Shown here: piece after piece, positions 19,195-58,804 of the stretch | How positions within the stretch are numbered: the first letter of the stretch is position 1 | Layout of the letters: each line of letters begins with the position of its first letter | Assembly (NCBI GenBank): GCA_019057385.1 | Contig: JAHQJS010000003.1 | Coordinates: 83,212 to 147,211 of the forward strand | DNA: 64,000 nucleotides | Source: Candidatus Borrarchaeum weybense | GTDB taxonomy: Archaea; Asgardarchaeota; Sifarchaeia; Borrarchaeales; Borrarchaeaceae | Reading direction: 5' to 3' | Notes under the pieces: generated by a model | What the model saw: only the letters and a program-made list of their open reading frames with translations | Databases searched by the model: none | What the model was told of the DNA's origin: nothing | Program-made: the position numbers and the translations under genes

Positions 19195-20190
19195 TTATCG
19201 CCGTATATATGAAAGTGCAGGTGCTTCTGAAGGCGCATTAACAGGTGAACGTATTGCATATCGCATTTTAATTAAATTTTTTCTATGTCCAGTAATTGAG
19301 CCCTGTATGATCATATAATCTCCACGAATAATGCCATAACGGATGAATCCACCGGGAGGTGTGATTTCATCACCATCCTCACCTATTTTCAATATTCGCT
19401 TATTATAATCAGTTCTTTGATGATATCCTAATTGTCCTGCTCGTGGTACAGTGTAGAACATATGATGTGGTTTCCATGGACCAATTGCACCAACACCACG
19501 TTTTGTCCCCCTAGATTTATCTTGTAAGATGCGAATACCCCAACGCTTCACCGGGCCTTGAAATCCTTTGCCAATCGAAATTGAACCAGTATCCACAAAC
19601 TGTCCGTTTTTCAAGATATCCGTAGCACGTATTTCTTTCCCTAAGATGGAATTTGCGTAATCAAATTGCTCTTGTATACCCTCTCCTCCACCTATTTTCA
19701 CTTCAAAGAGATGAGGCTTCCGTCGCGTAACACCACTTAAAATAGGTTGGGTATGAACTATAGCCCTTACTTCTGCTGTTGTTTCAATTGATTCTTTCAA
19801 CATATTCAAAGTTACTGAAGTGTTATAGTCTTTAGGAAGAGGAAAAACTCGACTTAGATCAGAATTTAAATCTGAGAACCAACTTTCACCAATGACACTT
19901 AGCCCATAAGGCGTTGATTCATAGGTACGCATTCCACATACGAAGAGGGGGGGTGTATCAAGTACAGTAACAGCCATAACACGTTCTTGTCCGTAGAAGG
20001 GACTATGTTCGTGATCTTCAATTAAAACTACATGAGTCATTCCTGCTTTGTAACCTGCAAAGCCAAGAAGTGTTGGTGGGCCAATCCAAGAAGGCCAGGT
20101 TTTAATCTTGCCAACTGGATGTGCCGCTCTACCACGAGGTAGATAAGCGAGTGATCCTCTTTTTGGTGCATGTCGTTTTCGATGACCCAT
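19195..20190 (-). CDS. rpl3: Ribosomal protein uL3
   Basis: MGHRKRHAPKRGSLAYLPR, GYKAGMTH, GKGFQGPVKRWG. Confidence 0.97.
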   Translation of the reverse strand: MGHRKRHAPKRGSLAYLPRGRAAHPVGKIKTWPSWIGPPTLLGFAGYKAGMTHVVLIEDHEHSPFYGQERVMAVTVLDTPPLFVCGMRTYESTPYGLSVIGESWFSDLNSDLSRVFPLPKDYNTSVTLNMLKESIETTAEVRAIVHTQPILSGVTRRKPHLFEVKIGGGEGIQEQFDYANSILGKEIRATDILKNGQFVDTGSISIGKGFQGPVKRWGIRILQDKSRGTKRGVGAIGPWKPHHMFYTVPRAGQLGYHQRTDYNKRILKIGEDGDEITPPGGFIRYGIIRGDYMIIQGSITGHRKNLIKMRYAIRSPVNAPSEAPALSYIRR

Positions 20191-29692: not shown

Positions 29693-30700
29693 TCATAGTT
29701 CAACGTCTTTGTAATTATCACCCAGAAGTACAAAATTTGCAAGAAGAGCATTAAGTTGAATTTCCTCATTGGCACCTTCGCTAAGCCTGAACTCTGCTTC
29801 TCCTAACAAATTCATAAGTTTAACTTTCAAGTCATCATTTTTAAAGTTCATTATTTCAGAATTCATTTGCTTAAGTATATCTATACCTGATAAACCGTAT
29901 TTGATGAGTAGTTTATGAAGTTGTTCTCGGGCATCCATAAAATTATTTTTAAGTGCGAATCTTATCATTTCTTTAATTTCTTCAGGATGGACACGGCCTG
30001 TTACTTGATAAACAACATCTGCTTTGATTTCATCATCAAACGCTGCTGCCGCTTGTAGGATGTTTATACTATTTCGCATATCTCCTCTGGAACTTTCCAA
30101 AATAGCATTAATGCCTTCTTCAGTAAGATCAACACTCTCTTTTTTAGCTATATTATTTAATTGCATTTTAACATCCTCTTGAGATAATGGAGGAAATCGA
30201 AATATAGAACATCGTGATTGTATTGGTTCGATAATCTTACTTGAGTAATTACCGATTAGTACGAATCTACAAGTGCGTGTGTATTTCTCCATTGTCCTTC
30301 TAAGTGCTTGTTGCGCATCAGAAGTCATGTTATCTGCCTCATCTAGCACTAGGATTTTAAATGGTACGTCTCCAAGTCCTTTTGTTCTAGCAAAGTTTTT
30401 TACTGTTGTTCGAATGACGTCAATACCTCTGGTATCACTTGCATTCAATTCCAACAAATTGCCTTCAAAATATTCTCCAAATAAATCACGAGCCAAGCAT
30501 AATGCCGCTGTTGTTTTACCTTTTGGGAGGTTTTATTAAAATAAAGACCTTGTCCCCGGAGGACCGACAAATAAACAATGCGGCATTGATTTCGTCTTAG
30601 CAAATGAGGTTAACCTTTGTACTATGCTTTCTTGGTTTATTATTTCTTTTAGACTTTTTGGGCGATATTTTTCTACCCACATCGCATATTCTTCATACAT
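29693..30700 (-). CDS. rfcS: Replication factor C small subunit, two exons (30552-30700 and 29693-30521), 325 aa after splicing
   Basis: Exon 1: MWVEKYRPK...[10 protein letters not shown](T). Exon 2: [10 protein letters not shown]...ELNASD...LDEAD...SRC. A 30-nt insert with an in-frame TAA lies between them. Confidence 0.92.
30522..30551 (-). other. BHB intron in rfcS mRNA (30 nt)
   Basis: GGGG-AC^A-AGGT...ACCT-CCCA-AA^A-GG: two 3-nt bulges around a 4-position helix (one G-A mismatch). Excision gives CCG GGG ACA GGT AAA ACA. Confidence 0.85.
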
Positions 30701-49364: not shown

Positions 49365-49808
49365 GTGACATCCTCCCCACCCTTTCGGTTGGGGCTTCCA
49401 GCTTTCCACTGCAGTTCTCGCTCTCTCACGGGAGGCGACGCTTCGCCACTGTCACTACACTTATGGGCTTACGGAAACTTACCAGGTTGCACACGCTGCT
49501 CACCCTTATCCTGCCCCTTCTTTATCTGCCTGCAGGATGCTATTGATCTATTACCTGCCTGACCGACAGGTTAGCAAACTGTAAACAACAAGGGGAATAT
49601 CTTGCCAAGCTGGATAAGACCTCATACACGGACATCCTTACGTTTAGCCCTGTCACGTGCTGACTGGTCGCTTACAGGAGGATATACCTCCACCCAGTCG
49701 GGCATTACGGGTACACTCATGGTACCATATATAGAGGGTTCAAGTAACTATAAAAAGACATCAACTTTCATCCCCTCCCTCTCGGAAGGAGATTTCCCGC
49801 CGATAAAG
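49365..49808 (-). mobile_element. Non-autonomous IS200/IS605-type element (second family)
   Basis: Right end GAAGCCCCAACCGAAAGGGTGGGGAGGATGTCAC, left-end hairpin TCTCCTTCCGAGAGGGAGGGGA, GC-rich interior, no transposase ORF. Confidence 0.75.
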
Positions 49809-52593: not shown

Positions 52594-52650
52594 TGAAATC
52601 GCCTTTGGAGACTCCTTACTTTTAAGGTGGAGAGGAAAGATGCGCAAAAA

Positions 52651-53853
52651 CTAACATAAACTGAATAATAACCCTTTTCCATATTTTACCAACTCCACTT
52701 TTTTAATTGTGACGCTGTGATTTTTTCCTTTAGGATTGTCCAATAAAACTCGTTTTCCGTAACAATGAACTCCTTTCACTCTATATGTACTATTATTATA
52801 CTTGACAAGGTCATATGGTAGCAACTGGTATTTTTGTCTCCTAATAGATGGTTTGAATCCCTTTCGATTCGTCTGTAGCGAACGGTTATTGCGCCTGACT
52901 TGTATCACCTCATATGGTCTGCAGCGTTCTTGGTTGGTTCCGCCGGCAATAACGAACGCGTCATTAACATGAGATTTTTCTAAACCTAACTTATTGCGGT
53001 GGTATTTAGTAACGTATCCGTAAGTATATTCTGCATCTAATTGCTCTACTAACTTCCAACGAATGCTATTCAGACACGCGGTTGCTTTAAGTGATTTCTT
53101 TGCCTTTTTCTGTATGTGTAGGTAGCCGAACTCCTCGGCGGTCTTATCTCCTTTTTTAAGGTTACATTTCTTGCATGCAATCGTCAAATTCGACACTCTA
53201 TCAGTTCCTCCTCGACTTTTAGGGACGATATGCTCAACTTCTACGGGAACACCCGTTTTACCACAATAGGCACATGTACGCCCCCATTTGTCTAAAAGGT
53301 ATTCTTTGACTTCGTAACCCTGAAGTTCGCCCTGTTGATACTCTACACCTGTAATTTCTGGGTTCTGCATTTTGTGAGCGTCGAAATTGCCCACCTCTAC
53401 CTTTTTGAAAGGTATTGGTAGCAACTTTTCAAGCGTTTCAACTAATCGAATATGTGACTCTTGTTTATGCTGAATACTGGGAGCTAACCAGCCTTCAGGT
53501 CGTGTTCGGTTATCAAATCGTGGTGGTCGATACCCTAATCTGCCTCTACGAGTTCTACGATACATACGTTTTTCCGCTAGCTTTTTAGAAACATCCTTGC
53601 GCAAGGTCAAAGTACCACTGATGACTTCTAACTTATCGGTCTTAGCACTAAATCCGATGTTCATATATCCGAGGTCCACTCCCAGTGCAATCGGTTGCCT
53701 AGTTTCTCCGGTAGCATAGTTAAACTGAATGGTAAAAGGGCATCGCTGAACAACGTGTGCCTTGCCTTCTTTTAACAACTTCTTGCCGTTGTGTTGTGTA
53801 GTAGGCATGAGCGGTTGCCCCCTCATGTTTACCACATAGATAGGTACTCTCAA
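52651..53853 (-). CDS. iscB: RNA-guided endonuclease IscB
   Basis: PLMP domain, RuvC-I GVDLG, Arg-rich bridge helix, RuvC-II E, HNH (CAYC..EHIVPKSRGG..NL..C..CN), RuvC-III SHVNDA. Confidence 0.96.
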   Translation of the reverse strand: MRVPIYVVNMRGQPLMPTTQHNGKKLLKEGKAHVVQRCPFTIQFNYATGETRQPIALGVDLGYMNIGFSAKTDKLEVISGTLTLRKDVSKKLAEKRMYRRTRRGRLGYRPPRFDNRTRPEGWLAPSIQHKQESHIRLVETLEKLLPIPFKKVEVGNFDAHKMQNPEITGVEYQQGELQGYEVKEYLLDKWGRTCAYCGKTGVPVEVEHIVPKSRGGTDRVSNLTIACKKCNLKKGDKTAEEFGYLHIQKKAKKSLKATACLNSIRWKLVEQLDAEYTYGYVTKYHRNKLGLEKSHVNDAFVIAGGTNQERCRPYEVIQVRRNNRSLQTNRKGFKPSIRRQKYQLLPYDLVKYNNSTYRVKGVHCYGKRVLLDNPKGKNHSVTIKKVELVKYGKGLLFSLC

Positions 53854-54126
53854 GTCCTATCGCCTCCTTTAACGTCTGTTAAAGTAGGTTGGTTCTCTTC
53901 GCCAAGGTTATCAGTCAGTACTCTACGGTGATCACTGAGAGTTTCCTCTCTGTTTAAACCATCATTTACAGAGCAAGGGACTAGAGAAGCATCCCTTGGT
54001 GTGTTCTTGAACTCTCCTGATAACTCAGATACCGCCATAAACTGTATGACCTCTCTTAGGCTAATCAACTAATTGCTCTCATTCCTCACGGAACAAGCCC
54101 CTACCCTTTAGGTTGGGGTAATTGAC
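53854..54126 (-). ncRNA. IscB omegaRNA scaffold (guide comes from the flank above 54126)
   Basis: Typical order GTCAA-hairpin, AGTTGATTAGCCTAAG, GGATGCTTCTCTAGTCCC, TAAACA, AACCTTGGCGAAGAGAAC. Confidence 0.85.
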
Positions 54127-57191: not shown

Positions 57192-57999
57192 ATGGTAGAT
57201 AAAAAGTCGGTACCACCTCTTAAACTTATATCTGATGAAGGTATCCGATCTGATGGTCGCAAATTTGATGAATTAAGACCAATGAAAATGGAGATTGGTG
57301 TGCTTAAAACGGCTGACGGATCAAGTTATGTAGAACAAGGAAGAAATAAGATTTACGCGGCTGTATATGGTCCACGAGAGTTACATCCGCGTCATTTAGC
57401 CTTACCAAATAAAGCTCGTGTAAGGTGTACTTATCGAATGGCATCTTTCTCAGTAGAAGGCATTCAATTTCTAAATAGCCTGCTGAAATGAAAGAAAAAG
57501 CCCTGCTCCAAGTAGAAGGGAACAGGAATTATCCATGGTCATTCGTGAGTCATTAGAGCCAGCAATTTTTTCCATTATGTTTCCTCGAACCGCTGTAGAT
57601 ATTTATATCGAAATTACACAAGCGGATGGAGGAACACGATGTGCTAGCATCACTGCCGCATCTTTAGCTCTTGCAGACGCAGGAGTACCACTAAAAGATT
57701 TAGTAGCAGGATGTGCTGCTGGAAAAATTGAAGGGACACTTGTTTTAGATCTCGATGACACTGAAGACAAATGTGGTGAGGCAGATCTTCCTTTAGCATT
57801 TATCCCTCGAACAGAAGAGATTACATTGCTTCAAATGGATGGATCATTTTCACCAAAAGAGTTTGAAGATGCAATGAATTTAGCTATTACTGGCTGCAAA
57901 AATATCTACGAAATGCAAAAAGAAACATTGAAGAACAAATATGCTGAGATTCGCGATGAAACTGATTCTGAGGATGATATCTCCGAAGAAGGTGATTAA
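57192..57999 (+). CDS. rrp41: Exosome catalytic subunit Rrp41, two exons (57192-57456 and 57488-57999)
   Basis: [25 protein letters not shown]|[25 protein letters not shown]. Frame is restored by removing 31 nt. Confidence 0.92.
57457..57487 (+). other. BHB intron in rrp41 mRNA (31 nt)
   Basis: TCTTTC-T-CAGT-AG^A-AGGC...GCCT-GCTG-AA^A-T-GAAAGA: 4-bp helix CAGT/GCTG, two 3-nt bulges, inner and outer stems. Confidence 0.88.
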
Positions 58000-58000
58000 A

Positions 58001-58804
58001 ATGGTTAAGTCTGAGAAAATCCTTTCTGAAATCGAACAAAACTATATTGAAAAACTTGTAAACAAGGGCAATCGTATTGATGAACGTTCGCTAGATGAAT
58101 TTAGGGAAATTACAATAAAGACCAACACTATTGAAAAAGCGAACGGCTCGGCTGATGTAATTTTAGGCAATACCAGAGTTTTAGCAGGAATTAAAATGGA
58201 AATGGGTACTCCATACCCTGATATGCCCGATGAGGGTGTTGTCACTGTAAGTGCAGAACTTGCACCAATTGCTTCCCCTTTCTTTGAAAGTGGACCTCCT
58301 ACAGAAGTAGGGATTGAATTAGCAAGAGTAGTCGACCGAGGCGTGAGACAATCACATGCTGTTGATACGAAAAAGTTGTGTATTATTGAGGGAGAAAAAG
58401 TATGGATTGTCTTTGTTGATATTTATGCCTTAGATCATGATGGAAATCTCATTGATGCTTCTGCCTTAGCAGTCATGGCTGCTCTTATGACAGCAAAAAT
58501 GCCGAAGTTAGAAATCAAAAAAGATAACGAAATTGAATATCTTGAAGAAACAATTCCACTCCCTATAGTTGACCATCCCATTGCTGTCACCATAGCAAAA
58601 ATGAATGGTGCTACGATAGTTGATCCATGTCTTAAAGAAGAATTTGCAATGACAGGGCGAATAACCTTTACATTTACTCAAGATGGAAATCTTTGTGCAT
58701 TACAAAAAGGAGGAGATGGAACTTTTAAGCTACCTGAAGTATTAAGTGCGTTTGAGACAGCAAGAAAAATAGCGCCTCAATTAAGAAAGTTCTTACCTGA
58801 ATGA
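58001..58804 (+). CDS. rrp42: Exosome subunit Rrp42
   Basis: RIDERSLDEFR, FESGPP, ELARVVDRG, HDGNLIDA, QKGG. Confidence 0.95.
   Translation: MVKSEKILSEIEQNYIEKLVNKGNRIDERSLDEFREITIKTNTIEKANGSADVILGNTRVLAGIKMEMGTPYPDMPDEGVVTVSAELAPIASPFFESGPPTEVGIELARVVDRGVRQSHAVDTKKLCIIEGEKVWIVFVDIYALDHDGNLIDASALAVMAALMTAKMPKLEIKKDNEIEYLEETIPLPIVDHPIAVTIAKMNGATIVDPCLKEEFAMTGRITFTFTQDGNLCALQKGGDGTFKLPEVLSAFETARKIAPQLRKFLPE

What the first reader, a model, noticed from the sequence alone, without database searches (positions are those of the whole stretch)
57457..57487. BHB intron in exosome rrp41 mRNA
Seen: an apparent frameshift is explained by 31 nt with a well-formed BHB (helix CAGT/GCTG, bulges AGA and AAA, inner stem AGGC/GCCT, outer stem TCTTTC/GAAAGA). 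Canonical cuts give [15 protein letters not shown], the conserved Rrp41 motif. With rfcS, that is two mRNA introns in 64 kb. Inference: possibly many spliced protein genes genome-wide in a probable Asgard archaeon, each in a highly conserved motif.
Basis: partly seen in the sequence, partly recalled or inferred. Interest (0 to 1): 0.82.

Follow-up and report, generated by a model that had tools for sequence, protein, structure and literature searches.

The report
tRNA-type intron splitting Asgard rrp41
The only gene for the catalytic exosome subunit Rrp41 in this Asgard archaeon (Candidatus Borrarchaeum) is broken by a 31-base hairpin shaped like a tRNA intron, so its mRNA almost certainly has to be cut and rejoined by the tRNA-splicing enzymes, something published work confirms for only one archaeal protein gene (cbf5).

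Summary
rrp41 (window 57192-57999, +) is split by a 31-nt insert (57457-57487). It folds as a near-canonical bulge-helix-bulge (BHB), with one U·U mismatch beside the 3' bulge.

Cutting after the second nucleotide of each bulge joins G|AT (Asp) and gives FSVDERK. The exons match the Rrp41 model at positions 1-78 and 80-230, leaving one position for the junction codon.

All Borrarchaeum genomes and metagenome contigs examined carry the insert, in six variants of 31, 32 or 33 nt. Their arms are invariant and their loops variable. About 85 homologues outside the genus lack it. The length changes modulo 3, which excludes frameshifting and readthrough. Independent DNA assemblies hold the insert.

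The genome encodes two EndA paralogues and RtcB. A motif-free comparison found at least 8 such introns in 6 core genes: rrp41, rfcS, cbf5, secY and three in TBP.

No RNA data were available, so excision is inferred, not shown. A generic BHB-plus-ORF scan showed no enrichment over controls. The significance therefore rests on the homology-fixed position.

Earlier unchecked notes of this scan report rrp41, dnaG and rrp4 introns in other Asgard genomes. I rate this a new member of a known kind.

The parts
57192..57456 (+). rrp41 exon 1 (88 codons plus the first base, G, of the junction codon)
   Evidence: It matches TIGR02065 (Rrp41) profile positions 1-78 and Pfam RNase_PH positions 1-60. Variability by codon position among six genus variants is 18/10/49 %, the pattern of purifying selection.
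57457..57487 (+). 31-nt BHB intron. Removing 57458-57488 gives the same product, because A57457 = A57488.
   Evidence: It is 31/32/33 nt long in six genus variants. None of its 15 structured columns vary, against 6 of 18 loop columns. It is absent from all homologues outside the genus.
57488..57999 (+). rrp41 exon 2 (AT of the junction codon, 169 codons, stop TAA)
   Evidence: It matches TIGR02065 positions 80-230, RNase_PH positions 67-130 and RNase_PH_C. The conserved codons 57490-57534 have no in-frame start codon, so they can be translated only if joined to exon 1.
57444..57454 (+). Exonic 5' half of the BHB: outer helix strand 57444-57449, U57450 (mismatched), central-helix strand CAGU 57451-57454
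   Evidence: None of the 7 third-codon positions in the exonic BHB parts vary, against 127 of 251 elsewhere in the gene.
57455..57457 (+). 5' bulge AGA; predicted cut between G57456 and A57457
   Evidence: The geometry follows the tRNA rule: anticodon bases lie in the central helix and the cut falls after the second bulge nucleotide (PMC4090602). The same rule restores the reading frame at all 8 predicted mRNA introns (cbf5, secY, rfcS, rrp41, three in TBP), with seamless protein profiles where tested (rrp41, cbf5).
57458..57481 (+). Inner helix AGGC/GCCU (57458-57461 / 57478-57481) closing the variable 16-nt loop 57462-57477
   Evidence: Independent DNA contigs show loop indels of 1 and 2 nt at 57471/57472.
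57482..57495 (+). Intronic central-helix strand GCUG 57482-57485; 3' bulge AAA 57486-57488 (cut after A57487); U57489; outer helix strand GAAAGA 57490-57495
58001..58804 (+). rrp42, the downstream exosome partner gene (context)
   Evidence: NF003282 Rrp42, 335.5 bits, above the cut-off of 280.
30522..30551 (-). Second mRNA intron in the window: a 30-nt in-frame insert with TAA TAA that splits the Walker A motif GPPGT|GKT of rfcS
   Evidence: In the genus it is 30/30/30/28/31 nt long. The inner helix shows a G-C to A-U compensatory change, and the central helix is a full 4 bp (UGGG/CCCA) in relatives.

Best explanation
The 31 nt at 57457-57487 are an archaeal tRNA-type (bulge-helix-bulge) intron inside the coding sequence of rrp41.

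Proposed mechanism:
1. The gene is transcribed as one pre-mRNA.
2. Codons for S-F-S-V and E-R pair with each other and with the 3' end of the insert. This builds an outer helix and a 4-bp central helix flanked by two 3-nt bulges. The insert's own ends form the inner helix.
3. The splicing endonuclease EndA cuts after the second nucleotide of each bulge. Two paralogues are present, one with and one without the catalytic His, which fits the lenient (alpha-beta)2 type.
4. RtcB joins the exons, creating the codon G|AU (Asp) and the conserved motif FSVDERK. Only the spliced mRNA can give full-length, 258-aa Rrp41.

Shown here: the anatomy, exact restoration of the protein, conservation and distribution of the insert, its presence in DNA, and the presence of the enzymes.

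Inferred: that cleavage and ligation actually occur, and that EndA and RtcB are the enzymes.

The intron was most likely gained once on the branch leading to the genus Borrarchaeum. This lineage has heavily interrupted rRNA genes, and other protein genes carry introns of the same geometry.
For: 1. Exact restoration. Exon 1 covers TIGR02065 positions 1-78 and exon 2 covers 80-230, leaving one position for the junction codon. The summed score is about 337 bits against a cut-off of 318.7.

2. Distribution. All 5 genomes of the genus and 3 metagenome contigs carry the insert at this codon. Thirty-six other genomes of the phylum and about 50 further loci (Bathyarchaeia, Thermoplasmata and others) read FSV/T-D/E-ERK without interruption.

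3. Length. Six variants are 31, 32 or 33 nt long, and each gives a stop-free 258-aa ORF under the same cut rule. No single recoding event fits all three lengths.

4. Conservation pattern. None of 15 structured intron columns vary, against 6 of 18 loop columns (p = 0.017). None of 7 third-codon positions in the exonic arms vary, against 127 of 251 elsewhere (p = 0.008). In the named structure 97.6 % of cells are paired, against 30-51 % when the partners are slid.

5. Purifying selection acts in both exons, including the 15 codons after the intron that have no start codon. rrp41 is single-copy.

6. DNA assemblies from two other studies contain the insert, with loop indels only, and none joins across it.

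7. The machinery is present: EndA paralogues on C4 and C5 and RtcB on C5. Asgard EndA is reported as (alpha-beta)2 with the loop linked to broad specificity (PMC5829648).

8. Context. A motif-free tblastn census found the same geometry at the alignment-optimal junctions of cbf5 (35 nt, TIGR00425 positions 6-69 / 71-319) and two TBP introns (37 and 31 nt), and at the tblastn-defined junctions of rfcS (30 nt) and secY (30 nt). A third, stop-free 30-nt TBP intron was found by eye in the exon-1 translation. The rRNA genes span 2666 and 4804 nt for models of 1478 and 2987 positions.

9. Chance. A strict BHB at a fixed 31-nt spacing occurs at 1.9e-5 of genome positions.
Against: - No RNA read or contig spans the junction, so splicing is not observed.
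- None of the 14 base pairs shows a compensatory change; 13 never vary. Support comes from invariance, not covariation, and the six variants are close kin.
- The motif has a U·U mismatch next to the 3' bulge. The MFE fold prefers a 5-bp central helix, whose cuts would not restore the frame.
- The fold z-score is only -2.07.
- Protein alignment alone cannot choose between the junction residues Asp, Glu and Asn.
- A genome-wide BHB-plus-ORF scan found as many hits with slid partners as with true ones. The motif by itself has no discriminating power.
Confidence: 0.87

Rival explanations
1. Translational bypassing (a ribosome hop, as in phage T4 gene 60). The peptidyl-tRNA would take off at GAA 57456-57458 and land on GAA 57490-57492, skipping 31-33 nt of unspliced mRNA.
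For: Identical GAA codons flank the insert and are conserved in all variants. A hop, like splicing, does not depend on insert length modulo 3.
Against: - The product FSVERK would lack one residue that every homologue and the Rrp41 profile have.
- The codon after the take-off site is GGC, not a stop.
- A hop does not explain the invariant 4-bp helix, 3-nt bulges and inner stem, or the same geometry in seven other inserts.
- By my own reading of the cbf5 junction printed, the cbf5 insert has no usable matched take-off and landing codons. This was inspection, not a dedicated computation.
Confidence: 0.03
2. Programmed ribosomal frameshifting or stop-codon readthrough across the insert, translating it into 10-11 extra residues.
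For: The gene looks like a simple frameshift if only one genome is read. Crenarchaeal cbf5 introns were at first confused with frameshifting (PMC2738675).
Against: Insert lengths of 31, 32 and 33 nt within one genus would need -1, +1 and readthrough events respectively. The inserted peptide would not be conserved and would sit inside the most conserved motif. The 33-nt variants carry an in-frame TGA.
Confidence: 0.01
3. rrp41 is a pseudogene, or is expressed as two separate polypeptides (a 99-aa N-terminal piece and a 154-aa piece from ATG 57535).
For: Gene callers would output exactly these two ORFs.
Against: - It is the only rrp41 in the genome.
- Both halves are under purifying selection in six variants.
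- The 15 conserved codons 57490-57534 ([15 protein letters not shown]) lie upstream of the first start codon and would be lost.
- The insert's arms are invariant while synonymous sites elsewhere are half saturated.
- The break is conserved across the whole genus.
Confidence: 0.04
4. The insert is removed from RNA, but by a mechanism other than EndA and RtcB (another endonuclease and ligase, or self-cleavage).
For: No enzyme assay exists for this lineage. The motif is slightly non-canonical (U·U mismatch, G·U closing pair).
Against: The geometry fits the EndA rule to the nucleotide at 8 sites. Thirty-one nucleotides are far too few for a group I or II intron, and Rfam finds nothing at the site. 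EndA and RtcB are present.
Confidence: 0.04
5. An assembly or sequencing artefact in this MAG.
For: The window comes from a metagenome-assembled genome with 7 % estimated contamination.
Against: The insert is present in five genomes, three metagenome contigs and contigs of two further studies, with natural sequence variation.
Confidence: 0.005

Closest known systems
cbf5 pre-mRNA intron of Crenarchaeota (Desulfurococcales and Sulfolobales; Watanabe 2002; Yokobori 2009, PMC2738675)
   Same: It is a short (16-44 bp) BHB-type intron inside a protein-coding sequence. It sits in the codon of a critical conserved residue, varies in length (not always a multiple of 3) and is found in archaea with a hetero-oligomeric EndA. 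It was likewise first mistaken for a frameshift.
   Different: The host gene is different (rrp41, the catalytic exosome subunit) and so is the phylum (Asgard, genus Borrarchaeum). Splicing here has not been tested experimentally. In this genome the rrp41 intron is one of at least 8 in 6 genes, including cbf5 itself at the catalytic Asp codon.
Canonical and non-canonical BHB introns of archaeal tRNA and rRNA genes (Marck and Grosjean 2003; reviewed in PMC4090602)
   Same: The same hBHBh' geometry: a 4-bp helix, two 3-nt bulges and a cut after the second bulge nucleotide. The size range is the same (12-35 nt is typical), and exon sequence forms half of the motif.
   Different: The exon half is made of codons rather than tRNA stems. 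Removal therefore restores a reading frame, and it has to precede or compete with translation.
HAC1/XBP1 unconventional mRNA splicing in eukaryotes (IRE1 cleavage; ligation by Trl1 or RtcB)
   Same: A short, frame-changing intron (26 nt in XBP1) is removed from an mRNA by a protein endonuclease at stem-loop sites, without a spliceosome, and the exons are joined by a tRNA ligase (RtcB in animals). This rests on my own knowledge and on PMC4090602.
   Different: The endonuclease (IRE1) and its recognition motif are different, and that splicing is regulated by stress. Nothing here shows regulation.
Phage T4 gene 60 translational bypass
   Same: A coding gap of tens of nucleotides with a hairpin and matched flanking codons.
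   Different: There is no stop codon after the take-off codon, the predicted product would be one residue short, and the structure fits EndA rather than a take-off hairpin.

Membership tests
Archaeal BHB (EndA-type) intron | [quoted passage not shown] | tested here: met
   CAGU/GCUG (one G·U pair) lies between bulges AGA and AAA. Caveat: the MFE fold adds a fifth pair, U57450-A57486.
Archaeal BHB (EndA-type) intron | Flanking helices h (exon-exon) and h' (intron) | tested here: met
   The outer helix is 6 bp, after one U·U mismatch. The inner helix is 4 bp. Both are paired in 94-100 % of cells across six variants.
Archaeal BHB (EndA-type) intron | Cuts after the second nucleotide of each bulge give a functional mature product | tested here: met
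   The exons map to Rrp41 profile positions 1-78 and 80-230, with one codon at the junction. All six variants give a stop-free 258-aa ORF.
Archaeal BHB (EndA-type) intron | Structure maintained in relatives while the loop is free to change | tested here: met
   None of 15 structured columns vary, against 6 of 18 loop columns, and lengths are 31/32/33 nt.
Archaeal BHB (EndA-type) intron | Compensatory base changes in the helices | tested here: inconclusive
   There are none in rrp41: 13 of 14 pairs never vary. The sister intron in rfcS has one G-C to A-U change.
Archaeal BHB (EndA-type) intron | Splicing endonuclease and RNA ligase encoded by the genome | tested here: met
   PF01974 matches twice (99.1 and 76.8 bits) and RtcB scores 581.8 bits. 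One EndA paralogue keeps the residues I read as the catalytic Tyr, His and Lys, and the other lacks the His (my reading of the sequences).
Archaeal BHB (EndA-type) intron | Excision and exon ligation observed in RNA | not testable with these tools
   No RNA holder is listed, and the two runs labelled metatranscriptomic do not cover 57457-57487.
Rrp41 (NCBIfam TIGR02065, exosome complex exonuclease) | Whole-protein score above the curated cut-off of 318.7 bits | tested here: inconclusive
   The halves score 108.3 and 228.7 bits and cover positions 1-78 and 80-230. Their rough sum of 337 bits exceeds the cut-off, but the spliced protein was not scanned as one sequence. The neighbouring gene is rrp42.
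Programmed ribosomal frameshift | A constant frame offset between the two ORFs in relatives | tested here: not met
   The offsets differ: the inserts are 31, 32 and 33 nt long.
Translational bypass (T4 gene 60 type) | Matched take-off and landing codons, a stop right after take-off, and a product collinear with homologues | tested here: not met
   A GAA/GAA pair exists, but the next codon is GGC and the product would lack one conserved position.
Self-splicing group I or II intron | A ribozyme core of hundreds of nucleotides | tested here: not met
   The insert is 31 nt long, and there is no Rfam match in the window other than HEARO at 53888-54126.

The most novel reading that the evidence does not exclude
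In Borrarchaeum, and by unchecked notes of this scan in other Asgard lineages, removal of tRNA-type introns from mRNAs would be a routine, genome-wide step of gene expression. Dozens of introns would sit in the most conserved codons of core genes (TBP with three, SecY, RFC, Cbf5, Rrp41). Cells without a nucleus would then have to keep ribosomes off unspliced messages, or tolerate or exploit the truncated products. That would be a protein-enzyme mRNA splicing regime in the closest prokaryotic relatives of eukaryotes.
Probability: 0.45. Interest if true: 0.88.

Novelty: new member of a known kind. Interest (0 to 1): 0.72.

Why it matters
Published work has confirmed splicing-endonuclease introns inside an archaeal coding sequence for only one gene family, crenarchaeal cbf5 (PMC2738675). 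I found no paper on rrp41 or on Asgard mRNA introns in the searchable library.

Here an essential RNA-decay enzyme cannot be made without such splicing. The same genome shows the same device in TBP, RFC, SecY and Cbf5.

Practical consequences:
- Standard gene callers will split or discard these genes in Asgard genomes. That distorts marker-gene sets, completeness estimates and phylogenies.

Biological consequences:
- It raises the question of how a cell with coupled transcription and translation handles unspliced mRNA.
- It gives a concrete substrate set for testing the range of Asgard EndA and RtcB.
- It shows that introns persist where codons are most constrained, probably because the exon supplies half of the splicing motif.

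Tried and rejected
1. **Genome-wide BHB-plus-ORF scan.** I required 4/4 central pairs, 4/4 inner pairs, at least 5/6 outer pairs, and both flanks open and coding. It gave 139 hits, against 128-146 when the 3' partner was slid, and filtering by coding potential did not change this. The scan has no power, because its hits are mostly boundaries between neighbouring genes. Its hit in the window at 52644-52674 is the boundary between an IscB-like gene and a helicase gene.

2. **RNA evidence.** No RNA holder is listed. Two runs labelled metatranscriptomic (X19, X20) have contigs on rrp41 but none over 57457-57487. An X19 joint from 57298 to 57622 (skips 323 nt, 22-nt side, likeness 90) looks like another organism or a chimera, not the intron.

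3. **Census false positives.** These were set aside after inspection: uL6, ftsZ, a Nudix gene, an M42 peptidase, purD and several unnamed ORFs. Their "inserts" contain a stop followed by a start, or lie before the family profile begins, so they are gene boundaries.

4. **Local-alignment placement of in-frame junctions.** This misbehaved by preferring larger deletions. I replaced it with a test at the junction defined by tblastn.

5. **ARAGORN as a calibration of BHB geometry.** It finds only 32 tRNA genes, many of them dubious, so it could not be used. I took the geometry from PMC4090602 instead.

6. **Rfam.** There is no family at the site.

7. **Look-up of earlier scan notes by sequence.** No look-alike stretch was found elsewhere.

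Full report
**What is there**

On the + strand, an ORF starting at 57192 encodes the N-terminal part of an RNase PH-fold protein and stops at a TGA at 57489-57491. A second frame, shifted by +1, is open from 57487 to 57999 and encodes the rest.

Against NCBIfam TIGR02065 (exosome exonuclease Rrp41), the first piece cut at 57456 matches profile positions 1-78. The second piece, from 57490, matches positions 80-230. Pfam RNase_PH is split the same way, 1-60 and 67-130. Exactly one profile position is left for a junction codon.

Removing 57457-57487 joins G57456 to A57488-U57489 (GAU, Asp) and gives ...[20 protein letters not shown].... The downstream gene is rrp42.

**The fold**

The orientation is that of a pre-tRNA. 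The 5' exon supplies the 5' strand of the 4-bp helix, and each cut falls after the second bulge nucleotide. This matches the description in PMC4090602, where the first two anticodon bases lie in the central helix and the splice site is 37/38.

There are two blemishes:
- a U·U mismatch (57450/57489) lies next to the 3' bulge;
- the MFE fold pairs U57450 with A57486, making a 5-bp helix. Cuts on that alternative would remove 32 nt and would not restore the frame.

**Is it more than chance?**

The motif alone is not. A genome-wide scan for strict BHBs joining two open, coding-like frames gave 139 hits, against 128-146 with slid partners. Such folds are common at gene boundaries.

At a position fixed by homology the picture is different. 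The strict motif at a 31-nt spacing occurs at 1.9e-5 of genome positions. At most about 8 junction placements fit the protein alignment.

**Comparative evidence**

The window is G000:C3:83212-147211. Close relatives are titled Candidatus Borrarchaeum yapensis and Promethearchaeota archaeon, so this is an Asgard archaeon.

- All five genomes of the genus and three metagenome contigs have an insert at this codon.
- Thirty-six other genomes from 17 families of the phylum, and about 50 further loci, read FS(V/T)(D/E/S)ERK without interruption.
- There are six distinct variants, 31, 32, 31, 33, 33 and 32 nt long. The same cut rule turns each into a stop-free 258-aa ORF.
- The frame offset therefore differs among close relatives, which excludes frameshifting and readthrough.
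- Among the six variants, 127 of 251 third-codon positions vary, but none of the 7 inside the exonic arms do (one-sided p = 0.008).
- None of 15 structured intron columns vary, against 6 of 18 loop columns (p = 0.017).
- The named structure is paired in 97.6 % of cells, against 30-51 % when slid, but it shows no compensatory change.
- Both exons show the 18/10/50 % variability by codon position expected under purifying selection. This includes the 15 codons after the insert that have no start codon of their own.
- rrp41 is single-copy.

**DNA and RNA reads**

Contigs of two independent DNA studies cover the site. They differ only by +1 and +2 nt in the loop, at 57471/57472, and none joins across the insert. 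No RNA data cover the junction. Excision is therefore inferred.

**Machinery and context**

- The genome has two EndA-domain genes. One carries the residues I read as the catalytic Tyr, His and Lys, and the other lacks the His. This fits the (alpha-beta)2 enzyme reported for Asgard archaea and linked to lenient substrate choice (PMC5829648; PMC4090602).
- RtcB is present.
- The rRNA genes span 2666 and 4804 nt for Rfam models of 1478 and 2987 positions.

**Other protein genes**

To test the genome-wide inference without using the motif, I fetched a complete 1.4-Mb Asgard genome (G006). I ran its ORFs by tblastn against G000 and looked for hits split by a frame change or by a stop-bearing insert. 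About 840 ORFs had strong matches.

Clear cases:

| Gene | Intron(s) | Notes |
|---|---|---|
| rrp41 | 31 nt | the finding |
| cbf5 | 35 nt | in the catalytic Asp codon, GGTL\|DPG; TIGR00425 positions 6-69 / 71-319 |
| TBP | 37 and 31 nt from the census, plus a stop-free 30-nt insert found by eye | the 30-nt and 31-nt inserts sit at homologous positions of the two TBP repeats |
| rfcS | 30 nt | GPPGT\|GKT |
| secY | 30 nt | relaxed motif |

These rest. For the frame-shifted cases the best protein alignment and the BHB rule pick the same nucleotide, with 4/4 central and at least 4/4 inner pairs. rfcS and secY have relaxed motifs.

In the genus the rfcS insert is 30, 30, 30, 28 and 31 nt long. 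It shows a G-C to A-U compensatory change, and it has a full UGGG/CCCA helix in relatives.

That makes at least 8 introns in 6 genes. This is a lower bound, because stop-free in-frame inserts and genes without a G006 homologue are invisible to the census.

**Explanation and rivals**

The best explanation is a tRNA-type intron removed from the rrp41 pre-mRNA by EndA and RtcB (confidence 0.87).

- A ribosome hop between the flanking GAA codons cannot be strictly excluded. It would delete a conserved residue, it lacks the stop after take-off, and it leaves the BHB geometry unexplained.
- Frameshifting fails on the 31/32/33-nt lengths.
- A pseudogene or two-piece gene fails on selection, on copy number and on the start-less conserved codons.
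- An artefact fails on the independent assemblies.

**Comparison with the known**

The closest case is the crenarchaeal cbf5 intron: 16-44 bp, in the catalytic-residue codon, sometimes not a multiple of 3, and long confused with frameshifting. Its authors state that no other archaeal pre-mRNA splicing had been confirmed (PMC2738675).

I found no paper on an rrp41 intron or on Asgard mRNA BHB introns.

Earlier notes of this scan are AI-written, and I did not check them. They report rrp41 introns in two other Asgard genomes in a different sequence context, and dnaG and rrp4 introns elsewhere. Notes on this genome list the rfcS and secY introns, which I confirmed independently.

**Verdict**

I rate it a new member of a known kind, made more interesting by its company in the same genome.

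Noticed in passing
G000 C5, minus strand; locus L164:1353-1387 (35-nt insert), exons L164:1389-1628:- and L164:583-1350:-: cbf5 carries a 35-nt canonical BHB intron inside the catalytic Asp codon (GGTL|DPG), the codon that the crenarchaeal cbf5 intron is reported to disrupt. It is 35, 31, 35 and 30 nt long in four genomes of the genus (G000 and three relatives). An insert with the same central helix and bulges lies at the same codon in another Asgard family (G031, L177). Open frames of about 260 aa suggest the same split in G040, G011, G021 and G036. This points to an ancient or recurrent intron site shared by TACK and Asgard.
   Followed up: partly
G000 C6:542850-542879, 543062-543098, 543190-543220 (locus L166): The TATA-box-binding protein gene has three BHB introns (30, 37 and 31 nt). 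The first and third sit at homologous positions of the two TBP repeats (GKLVCT|G...) and have nearly identical arms. The first is in frame and has no stop, so it is invisible to frame-based detection.
   Followed up: partly
G000 C5, locus L165:1846-1875 (minus strand): secY has a 30-nt in-frame insert with a TAG between ...GPDPF and FWMRT.... It folds as a relaxed BHB: the CCGU/GCGG helix, with one extra C before the outer stem.
   Followed up: partly
window 52651-54126 (minus strand): A 401-aa ORF that looks IscB-like from its HNH and RuvC-like motifs (52651-53856; my reading of the translation, not tested against a family library) lies directly downstream of a HEARO (omega-RNA) Rfam match at 53888-54126 (121 bits). 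This stretch has by far the highest depth in four metagenome runs, so it is probably a widespread mobile element.
   Followed up: partly
window 49370-49720: A GC-rich stretch with no ORF and no Rfam match. Contigs of one DNA run and one run labelled metatranscriptomic (probably DNA) join 49502/3 to 49658 and so lack about 155 nt. It may be a structured RNA gene carrying an intron here that relatives lack.
   Followed up: no
G000 C1 (179 kb), e.g. 19435-19896: ARAGORN finds 11 compact, intron-less tRNA genes on this contig, seven of them in one tandem array, while tRNA genes on the main contigs are interrupted or undetected. C1 may be a contaminant or a mobile or viral element (estimated contamination is 7 %). 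A second RtcB-like gene missing profile positions 89-131 also lies on C1 (13917-15008).
   Followed up: no
G000 C5:332567-340196 (locus L184:568-8197): The 16S and 23S rRNA genes span 2666 and 4804 nt for Rfam models of 1478 and 2987 positions.
   Followed up: partly
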